Shown piece after piece: positions 12,001-27,000 of a stretch of 64,000 nucleotides of DNA; within the stretch, counting starts at the first letter, position 1; each line of letters opens with the position of its first letter. The stretch is from Girardia tigrina (taxonomy: Eukaryota), in the NCBI GenBank assembly GCA_001938485.1, contig MQRK01181483.1:17144-81143 (forward strand), written 5' to 3'. Made by a program: the position numbers.

Positions 12001-15000
12001 GTAAGATATGAAAATTTTCAATAAATTATATTAATTGCAATTATTAAAAATTATTTAAATTTTGATTTACTGAGCTTGCTGAAGTAATTTACTCCATTTT
12101 TGATTATAAGATACTTTGAGTTGAAATCATCTTTCAAAAAACTATGTGTAAGTAGCGTTTATGCCACTTTTATTATTATCGAATTCCGAAGTCATAACTT
12201 AACACCAAAAAATTTATTTAAACTTATTTCATAACTTTTATTAAAATATATCAATTGTTATTACTGTAAGCATATTTTAAATAAGTATTTATGTTATCAT
12301 ATTTTTACTCTGCATTTTAATTTTTTTAATTTATTTCTTTTAAATTTTCAAATTAAAAAAATAATAAACTATTTTGGCGAAACTTAAATTTAAACTAACC
12401 CTTCATACTCTGGATCCAGCAGGTTGTGAAAAATGGCTGATTCGTGAGAAGTAATCGGTTTTAGTTCTAACAACGAAAGTAGATTAAGGCTGCATTTACG
12501 AAAACAACCGAGAATAGTTGATAAGTGAAAAAGAAACTCTCCAATATTTCTATTTTAATATTTTTGCATTATTTCTTCTTGGAAGATAAAATTCAAAAAG
12601 AATCAAAATATAAAATATCAATATTTGTTTACACCAATTTCAGAAACCTTAGAGCAAGGTCGGATGATTAAACTCACTTCAATATTACGATGTGCTTTTT
12701 TTCTTAAAATGTTATAATCTAAAAATAATTTTTACTACAGAAAAAGAAGGTATATGTAAAATTATTCAAACAATAACAATTTGGTTTTAAATAAAGATTT
12801 AAGATTGAAGGTTTATAGTTGATTGTTTGACTGTACGTGTCGTGCGTTGAATGAATTCCTGTTTCTGGCATATGCAGCACTGTCAATCATGCCATTGTAA
12901 TTTGACCCTGTCATTTAAATCTCATTCACTGGATCACCACCACCACCAGCCAGTCTCTTACCAACCTGCTCACAATTCATCAATTCACTTAAACAAAAGC
13001 TTTCGTTCAAGTAAAAATGATTGATTAAGTCATCATCAAATAGTTGAGTCACATAATCAAAATGATTCAATTTCCTGTATTAAGTTTCACTTTTCTTATA
13101 CCTAAAAGGTGTCCATATATATAATGAATATTATTATTCTATTCATCGATCATCAGCATGGGAGAATAAATCACGGAGCCAAATTTTGGATCAGTCACAC
13201 CGGATACTCGTACCACATGCCAGATAAATATTGAACGAAGAGAACGCATTGACGAATAGATGTATGCGAGGATAATATGATTGACAGCAGCCTAAAGGGT
13301 TATATTTTTATACGTAATTAAGTTGAATTATTAAAAATGAAGAAGACATGATTTATCAGTAAAGTATAATTATGTACAAGAAAAAGTAATATTACTAAAA
13401 AAAGTTATTTGATCTCAAAATACAAAAAGCTGTTTCATACAAATGTGAAAAGTGATGCACAAAATTACATAAACAACAGTGAACGCACAGAAATAATGTT
13501 ACTGAATCATATTCATTTCTTTTTGAGTCGACTTCAGCAAGTTGTCAGCTGTCCTTAACAAATTATCGGCTTCCTCCATCATTTCTCTACTTATTTTATA
13601 ATTATCTTGCTCACTATTACTCCTGGACACAAGACCATTTTTTATTTGAGAATTAATTGGAGATGATTTAGGATTGCTTGAGTTGCTAGACTCAGTTGTC
13701 ATTTGGAGAGGCTGGTGACTGTATTGAAGATATCTACCATTGGAGGGTATAAACTGATGAGCTGGCGTAAATGCTAAGTAAAGTGGTTGATTATAGGTGT
13801 CTCTCCTTTGGTTGCCATCTGGCTGGACTGAGACAAAATTTGTGTATTGATTGTCTGAATTAATGTTATTATCCGAATAATTTACTTGAGTAGAATCAAT
13901 TGGAAATGGATAATAGATCTGTGGTGGAGTATTCATGAGTTGAGTACCGTTATCACTAAGAGGACCGGAAAATGACAATGATGGATTTAAAGGTAAAAAA
14001 TTAGGAGGTAGTAATGTTGAAGGTCCTGAACTAGGTGTGAGGGTATTTTGTCCCACATAATTTCCATTAGAATTTTTAATTTTAGTCATGAATGACATTT
14101 GTCTTTGAGTGGTAGAGGTATCCTCATAGATTCTTTCAGGATCACTTACTTGCGAATTACATCGATTAAAATTTGTTTGATTTGGTGGTATTGAGAAATA
14201 ATTGCCATTTGTATATTGAGTTTCTATTAATAACATTATATTAATATAAGTTAGATAAAATATTATTAATTCAAAATATATAATAATAATGTCAAAAATT
14301 ATAAAATGAAAATATTACATCTTATAAATCTGAAAGCAGCGCAACTCAGTCAAAGAAGTAACCAAACAAACACAAATCAACAAAGCCCCATTTGGAGACC
14401 TTTTATGACGGACATTATTGTTTTTCACACAATAATTAGTGAAGCACTGGTCTTATCTGATCCAGATGGTCCGATCAAGAGTGTTTCATGATAACAATAA
14501 GCACTGTGAGATCTTATGACTTATACTTTTAATTTAACTAATAGAGAATATTTACCTCCATTGACGACCTTTTGAACAAACCCCTGGTTGAATAGACTTT
14601 TAAAGATGGTTTAGAATGAAAACATCTAAGATATTCAAACATATGTTTTTGCAACTTGATAATTAACAGATTTTGAACAAGAATGTTTATTTTAAATCAC
14701 TATAGAATGACAAAAACTAAAAATATTATTTTTATAGAAGTTTTTCACTTTATTATATTAGTGAAATTATCAATTCACAAACAAAATTAAATAACGTTAC
14801 TCAGTAGCGTGGCGAGGAGATAGGTGAGGCAATATTCGCGGGAGCCAAATTGCCCCTATGATTTGTTGTACAATAAACAAACGAAATATTTTGATAATCG
14901 AAAACAAATAAATTCCTGAAAGCCGATACTTAAAATGAAAGAGATATTGAAGAGATTTTATTGAATTAACGGATATTTATATTACATTACTATTGCAAAT

Positions 15001-24000: not shown

Positions 24001-27000
24001 GACCTCTCGCCCACCGACTACCATTTTTTCAAGCATCTGGACAACTTCCTCCAGAAAAAATGCTTCAAAAACCAAGACGAAGCTAAAGACACCTTTAACG
24101 CTTTCATCGCATCCATAACTCAGATGTTCTACATTAGGGGCATCAATAAATCTGTTTCTCGTTGGCAAAAATGTATTAATTCTGATGGTTTTTATTTCGA
24201 TTATTAAAGTTTATTCTATGCTGAGTTACTTTTGTTTAAAGTTTAGGTTCAAAAACCTGCATTGCTTTTGCAACGACCTAATAATTTAAAAATTTTATTA
24301 AAAATGTCCAAATAATTAATTTATAGTTCCTATAGACTATTGTACATCTAGATACTTATAAAAACCATAAGAAAAGAAATGCTAAATAAGAATTCGTTAT
24401 TAATCAAATGCAAAAAAAATAATTTTAATAACACTTAGCAAGTAATGTTTCCATTGTCAATTTGAAAGGGATAGCGATGTATAATATCGAATTTCCGATC
24501 ATCTAATTGTTACTTATGAAACGCAAATTGTTTAAGACATCCAAAAGTCTAGAATATAATTCAAGGTAATAACCAAATATTTCTTCAAATATCAGAATAA
24601 AGTAATGAAATTTACACATTGATTAAGGACAAAGTTAAAGATCTTAATGTAAATTAAAAACCCTATATTAATAATATTTTACATCCGAAAAAAATAATTA
24701 TAGTACTGAAAAATTAATAATTTTACTGATTATTTAAAAATAAATTAAATTTTACATTTAACAGTATATACTTCAAATTAAAAAATTTTTAACATTAAAA
24801 TGATAGTTATTGATAATTGGAAACTTACTGTTTGAAATATATTCACTTTGAGGAATTTCAGGGACTGTTGATTTTGTAAATTTCGATATTTTCGTTGTTG
24901 TGGAAAGATTAGAAGGTACTGCCACTTTGATGGATTCAGATTCCTGTCCTGAGTATGAACATTTCCAGTTTCCATTATTTAGAGGATCTGTTGCGTCAAT
25001 GATATATTGAATGACATACCAATTAGTGATCTTGTCAAAGCCATGATCAATACATTGGATCATTTTATCAGATAGACATTCCTTCGACTGAGCAAAACAA
25101 GTTTTTTTACAATTTTCTTTGCATATTTTTCCAAATGGACACTCTAAATATATGTTTAACTCTGAATTACGTTCCTGAACACTGCAAGTTAGAATCATTT
25201 GAAGATGATTTACAGACAGTTGCATTTTGACATTAGGTGAAGAAGCAAAGCTTACTAAATAAAATATTGAAAATAATCTGACTTTAGTTTAATAAAACTT
25301 CAAAATTTTAAAAAGAAAATATGCAATCAACTCTTAAATAAATCATTATTTAAAGAACATTCTATATATAATAATCACAAATAAACATTCTTTTCAAATG
25401 AAAAGCATTAATTTATTCGACTGAAGAAATATCTATTAATATAAAAATGCACTAAAGAGTAAAGAATAAATTAATATAACACTACCAAAAAATCATTGAT
25501 AAAAATTTATTTTAATTAATTTCCATTGTCTTCTATTATTGTCTTCATGGTGCAGCCTCATTAGAACTATCTACTGATACGACTAAAAATAAAAGCTTTC
25601 GACGTTAACACTTTAAATTTTAGATTCAATATTTTCTATGAAAAATTAATATATTTATAATTAATTAATATATTTATATTTTTATATTATATTTATATAT
25701 ATATACATTGTCTTTAGAGAAATTTAAATTAATTATTATTTTATTGTATTTTTTAGAAGTGATTATTTACTAAAAAATGAAATCATTGGAATCATTGATA
25801 AAATTGTGTTTACTAAGCAATACATATTTGACTTCAAACGCATTAGATTGAAAAGTGCAATGGCCTCTACTAGATGGATGTTTGATTACATGCTGAGTAA
25901 AATGACAAGATGTTCTCTACTGCAATGACATTTACATTGTGACACAAGGCATTGGAATCATTAGTTCACTTTACAGAGAAAAAGTTTATTTTTATATTTT
26001 GAGCACTAAAGCTCTTATTATTAATCGTACCAGTAGATAGTTTTAGTGTGGCTGTTCCATGAAAGTAATGAAAATTAACTACATTAAATTTAAACTAATT
26101 CATATAACATTTTTGACAATTTTTAATAAATTTATTTTTTACTTTTTAGTGAATTTTTATGTTATTAGAAAATATTTTTTCGTGGAAGAGAAAATAAATC
26201 AATTTACCTATATAATTCATTTCATATGGATATAGTTTTTTTTCGTTTTTAGTGTTCATATTAAATTCCCTTGAAAATATATTTATATTTCGTTTATCTA
26301 GTTTTTGAGTTTGAATTCAAATCGAAATCTCATCACCGAATTTCACATTAGATCTAATATTTAAGAAATCTAAGTTGAATCAATTAAATATCGTTAAATC
26401 TTTTAGTTGTCACCAAAATATTATGTCTTGAATTGTAAATTATTAGAATTTGAAACCACGGAAAAATATTTAGAGAAAAAGAAAAGATCAAAGATCTCTC
26501 ATATTATTCATTTTTGTCTTTTTAATCAATTGAAAACTAATTTTTCATCAACTGATCATAAATAGAACAAGCAGAAATCAAGTCATAAAATAAGAAATGA
26601 AACTATTAATCATCTCAAACTATTCAAAAATTTAAAATTTATGAAATAAAATGCGGAAAAAATATTTTTTTATTTTTTTGAAGGCGTGTTTTACAAATTT
26701 AGCTTGATCTATTTTTCTAGAGTACTGGATACAGTACTCAACTAAACCAGGACTGGCTGAACCAGAACCGCCTGATTCATTTACCAAATCAACTAAAACG
26801 AGAGTGCTTCTGTGAGAATTGCCAGTGAGTTGAATTTTATTTTACTGGTGCTAGTTCAGAATTTCTGCTTCAGTCTAAATTGAATTGAGTTCTATGTTCA
26901 AGATGATATTGTTTGATTTATTGAAGCATTACTTTTCTATCTTTAATTATGAGAAATAAATGATTAAAATTAAATCTTATTAAATTTGTTTTCAGTTTTT

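What the first reader, a model, noticed from the sequence alone, without database searches (positions are those of the whole stretch)
13499..25254. Hidden four-exon gene for an uncharacterised single-pass receptor with an Ig-like domain carrying a 6-Cys insert
Seen in sequence: four minus-strand exons (426, 63, 117 and 725 nt) with canonical AG acceptors and GTAAG donors, all phase 1, join into one ~443-aa frame that the ORF track shows only as unrelated fragments. The order is signal-peptide end (xSFA-SS), then ILTCSV...C-x5-C-x3-C-x3-C-x6-C-x7-C...DPLNNGNWKCSY, an S/T/P stalk, a TM helix and a ~245-aa tail. Established: Ig domains use B- and F-strand Cys with a D-x-G-x-Y/W-x-C motif and are often encoded by symmetric phase-1 exons. 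Inference: this is a divergent Ig fold without the canonical C-strand Trp, with a three-disulfide or metal-binding mini-module inserted, i.e. a possibly lineage-specific receptor or adhesion family. I recognise no named family.
[Added by the scan's program, not by the reader: the finding's places include an assembly gap (unread letters, written N; its length is only estimated) at 18281 to 18620, 19809 to 20697. Whether the letters on both sides are continuous or in frame is not known: test that first.]
Basis: partly seen in the sequence, partly recalled or inferred. Interest (0 to 1): 0.75.

Follow-up and report, generated by a model that had tools for sequence, protein, structure and literature searches.

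The report
Flatworm-only Ig-like membrane receptor gene
The window holds a real, split gene for a membrane protein whose outer part is an antibody-like domain pinned by eight conserved cysteines; it belongs to an unstudied protein family seen so far only in flatworms, parasitic ones included.

Summary
Both assembly gaps lie inside intron 3, within a retroelement, and touch no exon. Exon A (Cys-rich domain) and exon D (tail) are real coding sequence. Unnamed contigs encode a 60% identical copy of A and a 68% identical copy of D, and the D match starts at the predicted acceptor. Exon A also matches 10 more distant flatworm-type proteins, 7 of them named from cestodes, trematodes and a monogenean. 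Eight Cys are conserved and Pfam has no model for the domain. AlphaFold (core pLDDT about 90) gives an all-beta domain whose best PDB matches are Ig V domains. Exon C is the best transmembrane exon. Exon B and the C-to-D join rest on splice logic only. The first exon is not found. The tail is disordered with a confident C-terminal helix, and 12 of its 13 Tyr are invariant. This is a new Ig-like variant in an uncharacterised, flatworm-restricted receptor family. The joined protein was never built or searched.

The parts
25771..25843 (-). Tentative first coding exon (ATG at 25843-25841, a second in-frame ATG at 25825, donor tta|GTAAAt after 25771, phase 1). It would supply a basic start and a hydrophobic stretch running into the SFA-SS of exon A.
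   Evidence: Found by a script scan for ATG-started, hydrophobic, phase-compatible pieces upstream and read. Weak: GC is only 0.247, it lies between the arms of an inverted repeat at 25544-25599 / 26008-26063, and it has no homology support.
24829..25254 (-). Exon A: end of a leader (SFA-SS), an Ig V-like domain with 8 conserved Cys (residues about 7-110 of P0001), and the start of an S/T/P-rich stalk.
   Evidence: phmmer gave 11 family hits. A profile of 12 relatives built without the window's own sequence hits only this frame among 2,696 window frames, E 2e-27. AF2 and Foldseek.
22877..22939 (-). Exon B: 63-nt juxtamembrane linker (P0003). The weakest part of the model.
   Evidence: Good AG and GTAAGT sites, phase 1/1 and a local GC island. 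But 315 open AG..GT phase-1/phase-1 pieces exist between A and D by the same rule. There is no homology test. Skipping it would also keep the frame.
22585..22701 (-). Exon C: transmembrane helix with an Asn and a Cys, followed by a basic stop-transfer stretch (P0004).
   Evidence: Only two loci between A and D give a TM-like phase-1/1 exon. The other is antisense to a mariner transposase and less hydrophobic (1.92 against 2.57). BLASTP to the TM of the Paragonimus relative P0013 gives 8/13 identical, E 0.004. A TM profile of 4 relatives ranks this frame 1st of 2,696 only when the composition correction is switched off (E 0.01); with it on, the frame is not listed.
13499..14223 (-). Exon D: 240-codon cytoplasmic tail plus stop codon. 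It is disordered, N/S/Q/P/T-rich, with 13 Tyr and a C-terminal helix (P0002 residues 202-239).
   Evidence: P0022 (unnamed contig) is 68% identical over all 240 residues, and the similarity starts at the predicted acceptor. AF2: pLDDT below 50 for residues 1-12, 14-47 and 58-199; the last three blocks of ten (residues 211-240, within helix 202-239) average 92-97. 12 of 13 Tyr are invariant against 162 of 240 residues overall.
22940..24828 (-). Intron 1 (1,889 nt) with a mariner-type transposase remnant on the + strand (23833-24204).
   Evidence: DDE_3, E 4.7e-4, below the Pfam cut-off.
14224..22584 (-). Intron 3 (8,361 nt), filled with mobile-element remains: a GIY-YIG frame at 16545-16946 and a retroelement pol on the minus strand at 17567-20868.
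   Evidence: RVT_1 18995-19597 (E 1.6e-9), DUF7047 18756-19061 (E 1e-13), RVT_3 18623-18868 (E 0.0036, below cut-off), GIY-YIG (E 6.2e-5). rve 17570-18280 (E 0.023, below cut-off). No long terminal direct repeats found.
18281..18620 (.). Assembly gap 1, inside the retroelement, between its RNase H-like part and its integrase-like part.
   Evidence: The flanking domains are in the usual pol order on the same strand. This fits a continuous scaffold but does not prove it.
19809..20697 (.). Assembly gap 2, upstream of the reverse-transcriptase part of the same element.
   Evidence: The frames on either side (19555-19806 and 20698-20868) match no Pfam family, so continuity across this gap is untested.

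Best explanation
This is a real, intron-split gene on the minus strand. It encodes a type I single-pass membrane glycoprotein of an uncharacterised family known so far only from flatworms. Shown: exon A encodes a roughly 100-residue all-beta, Ig V-like domain with eight conserved cysteines, followed by a Ser/Thr/Pro-rich stalk. Exon C encodes a membrane helix with a conserved-looking Asn. Exon D encodes a conserved, mostly disordered tail ending in a 38-residue helix. Inferred mechanism: the B- and F-strand Cys form the usual Ig core bond. The six others staple the C-C'-D region into a rigid extra lobe that, with the Ig face, binds an outside ligand or counter-receptor. The presumably O-glycosylated stalk holds the head away from the membrane. 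The Asn in the membrane helix favours side-by-side association with itself or a partner chain. The tail works as a docking strip. It has a membrane-proximal Y-F-S-I/M signal of the YxxPhi sorting type, further invariant tyrosines that could be phosphorylated, and a terminal amphipathic helix that would hold a cytoplasmic partner. In short, it is a recognition or adhesion receptor built like the vertebrate Ig-mucin receptors, though not related to them by detectable sequence.
For: Exon coordinates, sites and phases were read directly. Exon A: 11 of the 13 phmmer hits at E<=1e-3 among 1.84 billion representatives are family members. Of the 10 looked up, 7 are named from Hymenolepis, Mesocestoides, Schistocephalus, Echinococcus, Paragonimus, Cichlidogyrus and Opisthorchis. 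Eight Cys plus P39, N47, G94 and W96 are invariant or nearly so in the 16-row alignment. The Cys columns are C in 13 of 13 non-redundant rows for six positions and in 12 of 13 for two. A profile made without the window's sequence finds exon A at E 2e-27 and nothing else in the window. AF2 gives mean pLDDT 78.4, with most blocks of ten between residues 11 and 110 at 84-93 (residues 51-60: 68), and eight strands. All Foldseek PDB rows shown are antibody V domains or nanobodies by description, plus SynCAM2 Ig1 (TM 0.62 by target, rmsd 4.1 over 105 columns). The full-length relatives P0008, P0011, P0012 and P0013 show the same order: domain, S/T stalk, membrane helix with Asn, long tail. Exon C is the only good membrane-helix exon between A and D and resembles the helix of P0013. 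Exon D is 68% identical to P0022 from the acceptor onward, with 12 of 13 Tyr kept. Its terminal helix is modelled at pLDDT above 90.
Against: No transcript evidence could be consulted. The join of C to D is inferred from strand, phase, the need for an upstream exon, and the absence of anything but mobile-element frames in between. It crosses two gaps. A profile of the tails of four relatives does not find exon D: it is not listed with default settings and ranks 92 of 94 without the composition correction. Single tails find nothing either. The only tail match is a 7-residue word with P0012 at E 0.27. The membrane-helix profile finds exon C only with the composition correction off. The N-terminal D-K-L-D-x-F-F-G-I type motif of many relatives is not found upstream on this strand, and no secure signal-peptide exon is known. 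Foldseek E-values are modest (about 1e-3), and disulfide pairing could not be read because no coordinates are given. The function is inference only; there is no experiment or paper on any member.
Confidence: 0.75

Rival explanations
1. Same gene, different exon set. Exons A and C are right, but exon B is not used, other small exons lie in the introns or gaps, or the acceptor of exon A or the donor of exon C is a neighbouring site.
For: Exon C has alternative in-phase donors (after 22621, 22597 and 22570) and an alternative acceptor (exon start at 22680). AG dinucleotides at 25279-78 and 25252-51 could also serve exon A. Gaps of an estimated 340 and 889 nt could hide sequence.
Against: The chosen sites have the best consensus: pyrimidine-rich tracts, and GTAAG at all three donors, which are 3 of only 10 GTAAG on this strand in 12 kb. 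Exon B is a local GC island.
Confidence: 0.35
2. Two genes. Exons A-C belong to the receptor, while exon D is the last exon of another transcript, or the scaffold is wrongly joined at a gap.
For: The intron would be 8.4 kb, holds two gaps, and continuity across gap 2 is untested. The tails of relatives show no significant likeness to exon D. The two close copies, P0005 and P0022, come from separate short contigs (1,013 and 1,456 nt), so they do not link A and D.
Against: Exon D starts at an acceptor in phase 1, so it needs an upstream phase-1 donor on this strand. The nearest conserved coding exons upstream are A-C, all phase 1. Between them lie only mobile-element frames. Exon C ends right after the stop-transfer residues with no stop codon, so a tail exon is required. 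All 4 full-length relatives have tails of about 110-280 residues. Identity to the close copies is similar for the two exons (60% and 68%). The retroelement's domains keep the usual order across gap 1.
Confidence: 0.2
3. The Cys-rich part is a Frizzled-type cysteine-rich (FZ) domain, as the automatic UniRef names of the Hymenolepis and Mesocestoides relatives say, and would bind Wnt-like ligands.
For: Source names 'FZ domain-containing protein' for P0019, P0008 and P0021.
Against: None of the 16 aligned proteins matches the Pfam Fz model at E<=10. Eight, not ten, conserved Cys. The model is all beta, whereas the FZ domain is mainly helical (recalled). Foldseek's best matches are Ig V domains. 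Other automatic names for the same family disagree with each other: 'Ig-like domain-containing', 'C2 tensin-type domain-containing'.
Confidence: 0.03
4. A decaying pseudogene or a transposon-carried frame with no function of its own.
For: The window is dominated by mobile-element remains. The gene has no confident start.
Against: No stop or frameshift lies in any of the four exons. Exons A and D are 60% and 68% identical at protein level, with few gaps, to copies from other contigs. All eight Cys are intact. No mobile-element domain lies in the exons. The domain occurs once in the window.
Confidence: 0.05

Closest known systems
Hypothetical proteins of parasitic flatworms: Echinococcus multilocularis EmuJ_000324700 (P0011), Mesocestoides corti A0A5K3F5V6 (P0008), Paragonimus EG68_02630 (P0013), Opisthorchis T265_09021 (P0017), Hymenolepis, Schistocephalus and Cichlidogyrus entries
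   Same: The same eight-Cys domain, 27-35% identical over about 100 residues at E 6.5e-6 to 8.5e-4, with invariant C-P, E-N-C and G-x-W-x-C. In the full-length ones the same order holds: domain, S/T stalk, membrane helix with Asn, long tail.
   Different: Many have an N-terminal stretch with a D-K-L-D-x-F-F-G-I type motif that was not found here. Their tails are not detectably alike. None has a studied function: three literature searches found nothing on them.
Ig V-set domains (antibody VH/VHH; SynCAM2/nectin-like Ig1, PDB 3m45)
   Same: Predicted beta-sandwich with Cys on the B and F strands and a G-x-aromatic-x-C F-strand motif. These are the best structural matches. Protein-language-model neighbours at 0.87-0.88 include V-set, PD-1 and PVRIG clusters; these are leads only.
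   Different: No sequence-profile match to any Pfam Ig model or to any PDB sequence. No C-strand Trp. Trp takes the place of the F-strand Tyr. Six extra conserved Cys lie between strands C and D.
TIM family (T-cell Ig and mucin domain receptors)
   Same: Type I glycoproteins with one N-terminal V domain carrying extra non-canonical cysteines that shape the ligand site, then a mucin domain, a membrane helix and a cytoplasmic tail (PMC10576709, passages of section 3 read). The gene here has the same order of parts and a Tyr-rich tail.
   Different: No detectable sequence relationship. Six extra Cys here against four in the two extra bonds described for TIM-3. TIM proteins are vertebrate immune receptors. 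This is a likeness in how it may work, not membership.
Frizzled cysteine-rich domain
   Same: Only a run of spaced cysteines and the automatic database label.
   Different: See the third rival: no Pfam match, a different Cys count, and an all-beta model.

Membership tests
Flatworm eight-Cys Ig-like membrane protein family (unnamed; EmuJ_000324700-like) | Significant sequence similarity of the ectodomain | tested here: met
   11 family hits at E<=1e-3; a profile of 12 relatives made without the window's sequence scores exon A at E 2e-27 (92.9 bits); the next window frame scores E 2.8.
Flatworm eight-Cys Ig-like membrane protein family (unnamed; EmuJ_000324700-like) | Eight conserved Cys with C-P after the second, E-N-C at the fourth, and G-x-W-x-C at the last | tested here: met
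   C23, C38, C44, C48, C67 and C98 in 13 of 13 non-redundant rows; C52 and C59 in 12 of 13 (the exception, P0014, has Cys nearby and may be misaligned).
Flatworm eight-Cys Ig-like membrane protein family (unnamed; EmuJ_000324700-like) | S/T-rich stalk, one membrane helix containing Asn, long cytoplasmic tail | tested here: inconclusive
   Each part is present exon by exon, but the splice joins are unverified, and the helix profile supports exon C only with the composition correction off.
Flatworm eight-Cys Ig-like membrane protein family (unnamed; EmuJ_000324700-like) | Signal peptide and N-terminal D-K-L-D-x-F-F-G-I type motif (present in 8 of the aligned relatives, not in all) | tested here: not met
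   Pattern scan and profile scan found nothing on the minus strand upstream. Only a tentative leader exon at 25771-25843.
Immunoglobulin superfamily, V-set | Beta-sandwich fold of V type | tested here: met
   AF2 model with eight strands and core pLDDT about 90. Foldseek PDB best matches are V domains, E 6e-4 to 2e-3, TM up to 0.62 by target. This is a prediction, not a solved structure.
Immunoglobulin superfamily, V-set | Cys on strand B and strand F forming the core disulfide | tested here: inconclusive
   C23 lies in predicted strand 18-26 and C98 in strand 94-100, and both are invariant. The bond itself could not be checked because no coordinates are returned.
Immunoglobulin superfamily, V-set | Conserved Trp on strand C | tested here: not met
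   No conserved Trp in or near predicted strand 34-37. The only invariant Trp is W96.
Immunoglobulin superfamily, V-set | Match to a curated Ig sequence model | tested here: not met
   No Pfam hit for exon A at E<=10. Among the 16 aligned proteins, Ig models hit only one row. From its length and sequence this is P0020, and the hit lies in its extra N-terminal part, not in this domain.
Frizzled cysteine-rich domain | Match to the Pfam Fz model; ten conserved Cys; mainly helical fold (the last two recalled) | tested here: not met
   0 of 16 proteins match Fz at E<=10. Eight conserved Cys. All-beta model.
TIM family | Sequence relationship to TIM V domains and their ligand-binding cleft | tested here: not met
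   No PDB sequence is matched by exon A or by the family profile at E<=10. The cleft residues were not examined.

The most novel reading that the evidence does not exclude
Flatworms carry their own phylum-restricted class of surface receptors: one Ig V-like head with a new three-disulfide lobe in place of the C'-C'' region, a mucin stalk, an Asn-bearing membrane helix and a tyrosine-studded signalling tail. This would be an independent invention of the Ig-mucin receptor plan. It is kept from free-living forms to tapeworms, flukes and monogeneans, and so is likely tied to a flatworm-specific cell-surface process, such as tegument or epidermis biology or cell-cell recognition, and exposed at the host interface in parasites.
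Probability: 0.25. Interest if true: 0.6.

Novelty: new variant of a known kind. Interest (0 to 1): 0.42.

Why it matters
The family has no Pfam model, no consistent name and no paper that the searches could find. Yet it is conserved across at least three classes of parasitic flatworms, and in this AT-rich genome whose closest copies are unnamed. A surface protein restricted to flatworms, with a rigid and well-conserved outer domain, is a natural candidate for a lineage-specific recognition receptor. In parasites it would also be a candidate surface marker. The domain would merit a family definition of its own: an Ig-like fold without the C-strand Trp and with four disulfides. For genome annotation, it shows that a gene split by transposon-filled introns is missed when only open frames are inspected.

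Tried and rejected
(1) Word-indexed searches for longer proteins, with exon A (248-2000 aa) and exon D (421-2000 aa), found nothing at E<=0.01. So no full-length close relative is in that collection, and A and D could not be linked that way.

(2) Two of the 13 phmmer hits (P0006, P0009) were dropped. They are long proteins made of many near-identical repeats and match only a short Y-x-I-D-A-T-x-P or D-P-x-N-x-G-N-W word. I judged them unrelated, bacterial-type repeat proteins from their sequence alone and did not look them up.

(3) A profile of relatives' tails, and single tails, against all 2,696 window frames did not find exon D.

(4) The profile of relatives' membrane region with default settings did not list exon C among 632 rows. 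Only with --nonull2 did it rank first.

(5) The N-terminal motif pattern and profile gave no hit upstream on the minus strand.

(6) A search for long terminal repeats in intron 3 found none.

(7) Rfam and tRNA scans of the window found none.

(8) Protein Atlas: the tail gave no usable hit. The head gave unnamed mollusc-labelled clusters at 0.93-0.95 and V-set clusters below 0.9; these are leads only.

(9) Complex prediction on two copies of the ectodomain returned 'no answer'. This is neither for nor against self-binding, and the tool did not use the alignment.

(10) Dystroglycan (Ig-like domain plus mucin region plus Pro/Tyr tail) was considered after a literature listing. It was dropped because there is no Pfam hit of any kind. 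Of that paper only one methods passage was seen, which says flatworm dystroglycan is very divergent (PMC4582122).

(11) Literature: gene and accession identifiers gave 0 papers. Two keyword searches gave nothing relevant in the listings.

(12) The organism was not identified. Nothing here suggests human sequence: GC is about 0.27 and all named relatives are flatworm proteins.

Full report
WHAT IS IN THE SEQUENCE

- Exon A: 25254-24829 (426 nt)
- Exon B: 22939-22877 (63 nt)
- Exon C: 22701-22585 (117 nt)
- Exon D: 14223-13499 (725 nt, ending in TAA)

Every acceptor is an AG behind a T-rich tract, and every donor is GTAAG. All borders are phase 1, and each exon is open in the frame this demands (P0001 141 aa, P0003 20 aa, P0004 38 aa, P0002 240 aa). 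The joined protein was never built, translated or searched, so every statement about the whole protein is put together from separate results.

The window is AT-rich (GC mostly 0.22-0.35) and nothing suggests a human contig.

THE ASSEMBLY GAPS

The N runs at 18281-18620 and 19809-20697 both lie inside the proposed third intron (22584-14224). No exon touches a gap, and no frame of the model must be read across one. The gaps matter in two other ways: the scaffold might be misjoined, or the gaps might hide sequence.

The intron is filled with mobile-element remains on the same strand.
- Reverse transcriptase: 18995-19597, RVT_1, E 1.6e-9
- DUF7047: 18756-19061, E 1e-13
- An RNase H-like stretch: 18623-18868, RVT_3, E 0.0036, below the cut-off
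- Gap 1
- An integrase-like frame: 17570-18280, rve, E 0.023, below the cut-off

This is the usual pol order of LTR-type retroelements (established knowledge), so the two sides of gap 1 look like parts of one element. The frames on either side of gap 2 match no family, so continuity there is untested. No terminal direct repeats were found.

IS IT MORE THAN CHANCE?

The 271-aa frame holding exon D exceeds the longest frame in all 100 first-order Markov simulations of the window (mean 122, max 177 aa). The 171-aa frame holding exon A does not exceed that maximum.

GTAAG is not enriched on this strand (10 seen, 11.7 expected), but three of the ten are exactly the three donors.

The exons are GC islands (0.33-0.40 against 0.15-0.25 in their flanks).

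Homology is the decisive evidence, as follows.

EXON A

Pfam and PDB sequence searches were empty, as was the word-indexed search among longer proteins. The exhaustive phmmer run against 1.84 billion representatives gave 13 proteins at E<=1e-3.

I dropped two of them (P0006, P0009). They are long repeat proteins that match only a short word.

The other eleven form a family.
- P0005 is 60% identical (E 1.3e-37) and comes from an unnamed 1,013-nt contig.
- The remaining ten are 27-35% identical over about 100 residues.

Of the ten family members I looked up, seven are named from flatworms: Hymenolepis, Mesocestoides, Schistocephalus, Echinococcus (EmuJ_000324700), Paragonimus, Cichlidogyrus and Opisthorchis. 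Three are unnamed, and P0016 was not looked up.

In the 16-row alignment, C23, C38, P39, C44, N47, C48, C67, G94, W96 and C98 are invariant. V25, E46, C52, C59 and Y83 are nearly so.

A profile of 12 relatives built without the window's own sequence hits the exon A frame at E 2e-27 and nothing else among 2,696 window frames. The domain is therefore single-copy here.

THE FOLD

AlphaFold2 on that alignment gives mean pLDDT 78.4. Most blocks of ten between residues 11 and 110 lie at 84-93 (residues 51-60: 68), and the stalk is below 50. The model has eight beta strands and no helix of four or more residues.

In Foldseek against the PDB, the best rows are antibody variable domains and nanobodies, plus Ig1 of SynCAM2. 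E-values are 6e-4 to 2e-3. TM-scores are 0.36-0.62 normalised by the target.

C23 sits on the second strand and C98 on the seventh, as the B and F cysteines of an Ig domain do. No Trp is conserved on the third strand. The six remaining Cys fall between residues 38 and 67, where a V domain has its C'-C'' region.

I could not read the disulfide pairing because no coordinates are returned. An even number of invariant Cys in an extracellular domain argues for four disulfides rather than a metal site (inference).

Protein Atlas neighbours were unnamed mollusc-labelled clusters (0.93-0.95), then V-set, PD-1 and PVRIG clusters at 0.87-0.88. These are leads only.

THE AUTOMATIC 'FZ DOMAIN' LABEL

Some relatives carry the automatic name 'FZ domain-containing protein'. 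This is not borne out.
- None of the 16 proteins matches Pfam Fz at E<=10.
- The Cys count is eight.
- The model is all beta.

EXONS B AND C

The four full-length relatives (P0008, P0011, P0012, P0013) continue after the domain with an S/T-rich stalk, a membrane helix containing an Asn, and a tail of roughly 110-280 residues.

In the window, 315 open AG..GT pieces between A and D satisfy phase 1 on both sides. Only two loci give a membrane-helix-like one. The first is antisense to a mariner remnant (hydropathy 1.92, poor acceptor tracts). The second is the exon C locus (2.57).

Exon C resembles the helix of the Paragonimus protein (8 of 13 identical, E 0.004 for that single comparison). It matches P0012 only at E 25.

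A four-sequence profile of the membrane region ranks exon C first of 2,696 frames (E 0.01), but only when HMMER's composition correction is switched off. With it on, exon C is not listed. So the support is real but thin.

Exon B has good splice signals and is a GC island, yet it cannot be told from chance pieces. Leaving it out would also keep the frame.

EXON D

The word-indexed search among proteins of similar length found one protein, P0022 (263 aa, from an unnamed 1,456-nt contig). It is 68% identical and 80% similar over all 240 residues, with two gaps.

The likeness begins at residue 2 of the exon, right at the predicted acceptor. Upstream of that point both frames read only T-rich intron-like sequence. 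This fixes the acceptor and shows that the tail is under constraint.

It also means exon D needs an upstream phase-1 exon on this strand. The nearest conserved coding exons are A-C, and only mobile-element frames lie between them.

Against the link:
- The tails of the distant relatives show no significant likeness to exon D.
- P0005 and P0022 come from separate short contigs.

I put the C-to-D join at roughly 0.75-0.8.

AlphaFold2 models the tail as disordered: pLDDT is below 50 for residues 1-12, 14-47 and 58-199. The exception is a helix at 202-239, whose last three blocks of ten average 92-97. Twelve of 13 Tyr are invariant between the two species, against 162 of 240 residues overall. One of these Tyr lies in a membrane-proximal Y-F-S-I/M, which fits the YxxPhi sorting pattern (recalled).

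THE START OF THE GENE

The frame of exon A is open for 11 codons upstream of the chosen acceptor and reads as a hydrophobic leader ending in SFA-SS. There is no ATG in it, so at least one upstream exon is needed.

A script scan found one candidate: ATG at 25843 (or 25825) to 25771, donor GTAAAT, phase 1, with a basic start and a hydrophobic run. It is AT-rich (GC 0.247), lies between the arms of a 56-nt inverted repeat, and has no homology support.

The N-terminal motif of many relatives was not found upstream. The first exon is therefore open.

HOW IT MOST LIKELY WORKS

Shown: the order of parts, the conservation, and the predicted fold.

Inferred: it is a type I surface glycoprotein. Its Ig V-like head is stiffened by four disulfides and recognises an outside ligand or counter-receptor. 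A glycosylated stalk lifts the head. The Asn in the helix promotes lateral association (recalled property of polar residues in membrane helices). The disordered tail carries sorting and possibly phosphotyrosine docking motifs, and its terminal helix binds a cytoplasmic partner.

A test for self-binding of the head gave no verdict and counts neither way.

COMPARISON WITH KNOWN FAMILIES

The protein is a member of the unnamed flatworm family around EmuJ_000324700.

Structurally it is Ig-like, but it fails the sequence-defined tests of the V-set: no Pfam match and no C-strand Trp.

In build it is closest to the vertebrate TIM receptors: a V domain with extra cysteines shaping the ligand site, then a mucin domain, a membrane helix and a tail (PMC10576709, passages of section 3). 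There is no sequence relationship, so this is 'works like', not 'is a'.

NOVELTY AND LIMITS

Three literature searches found nothing on the family. The identifier search gave 0 papers, and two keyword searches gave no relevant title or abstract in the listings. Supplementary tables, where such identifiers usually sit, were closed.

Several checks could not be made.
- No eukaryotic genome or transcript DNA could be consulted.
- As a result, intron conservation, expression and the species of origin stayed unchecked.

My rating is a new variant of a known kind: an Ig-like domain subtype in an uncharacterised, apparently phylum-restricted receptor family. It is of moderate interest.

Noticed in passing
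window 520-2825: A mariner-type transposase on the + strand (HTH_48 and Transposase_1, 520-1125, continuing in 1162-1530). It overlaps a reverse-transcriptase frame on the - strand (RVT_1, 1367-2014). These are nested mobile-element remains.
   Followed up: partly
window 16424-17188: A GIY-YIG nuclease frame (16545-16946, - strand, E 6.2e-5). It is flanked by two short frames on opposite strands with similar translations (16424-16522 + and 17078-17188 -), which suggests inverted terminal repeats of a small element inside intron 3.
   Followed up: partly
window 25544-25599 and 26008-26063: A 56-nt inverted repeat, 84% complementary with 408 nt between the arms. It occurs only here in the window and encloses the tentative first exon. 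It may be a small foldback element.
   Followed up: partly
window 30490-32497: Further mariner/Tc1-like remains: Transposase_1 on the - strand (30493-30837), and HTH domains plus a long frame on the + strand (31403-32497).
   Followed up: partly
window 41790-42706: A third assembly gap (917 N). Judged by eye, the frame just after it on the + strand (to 42877) reads like the C-terminal end of a mariner-type transposase.
   Followed up: no
window 53782-54198: A short stretch with long open frames on both strands (99-105 aa) whose translations are rich in G/A/R/P. It looks unusually GC-rich for this window. There is no Rfam or tRNA match. Its nature is unknown.
   Followed up: no
window 55883-56746: piggyBac-type transposase fragments on the + strand (DDE_Tnp_1_7, E 1.3e-14 and 9e-6).
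   Followed up: partly
protein P0020 (Mesocestoides corti, 694 aa): One deposited model of a relative carries an extra N-terminal part with ordinary Ig domains ahead of the family domain. In one search, C2-set_2 (E 4.8e-5), Ig_3 and ig each matched one alignment row, taken to be this one. It is either a true longer isoform or a fused gene model.
   Followed up: no
window 25255-25251 (minus strand): The acceptor AG of exon A is part of a GTAAG word, so the same bases also look like a donor. This is probably coincidence, but it shows that the 5' border of exon A is not secure.
   Followed up: partly
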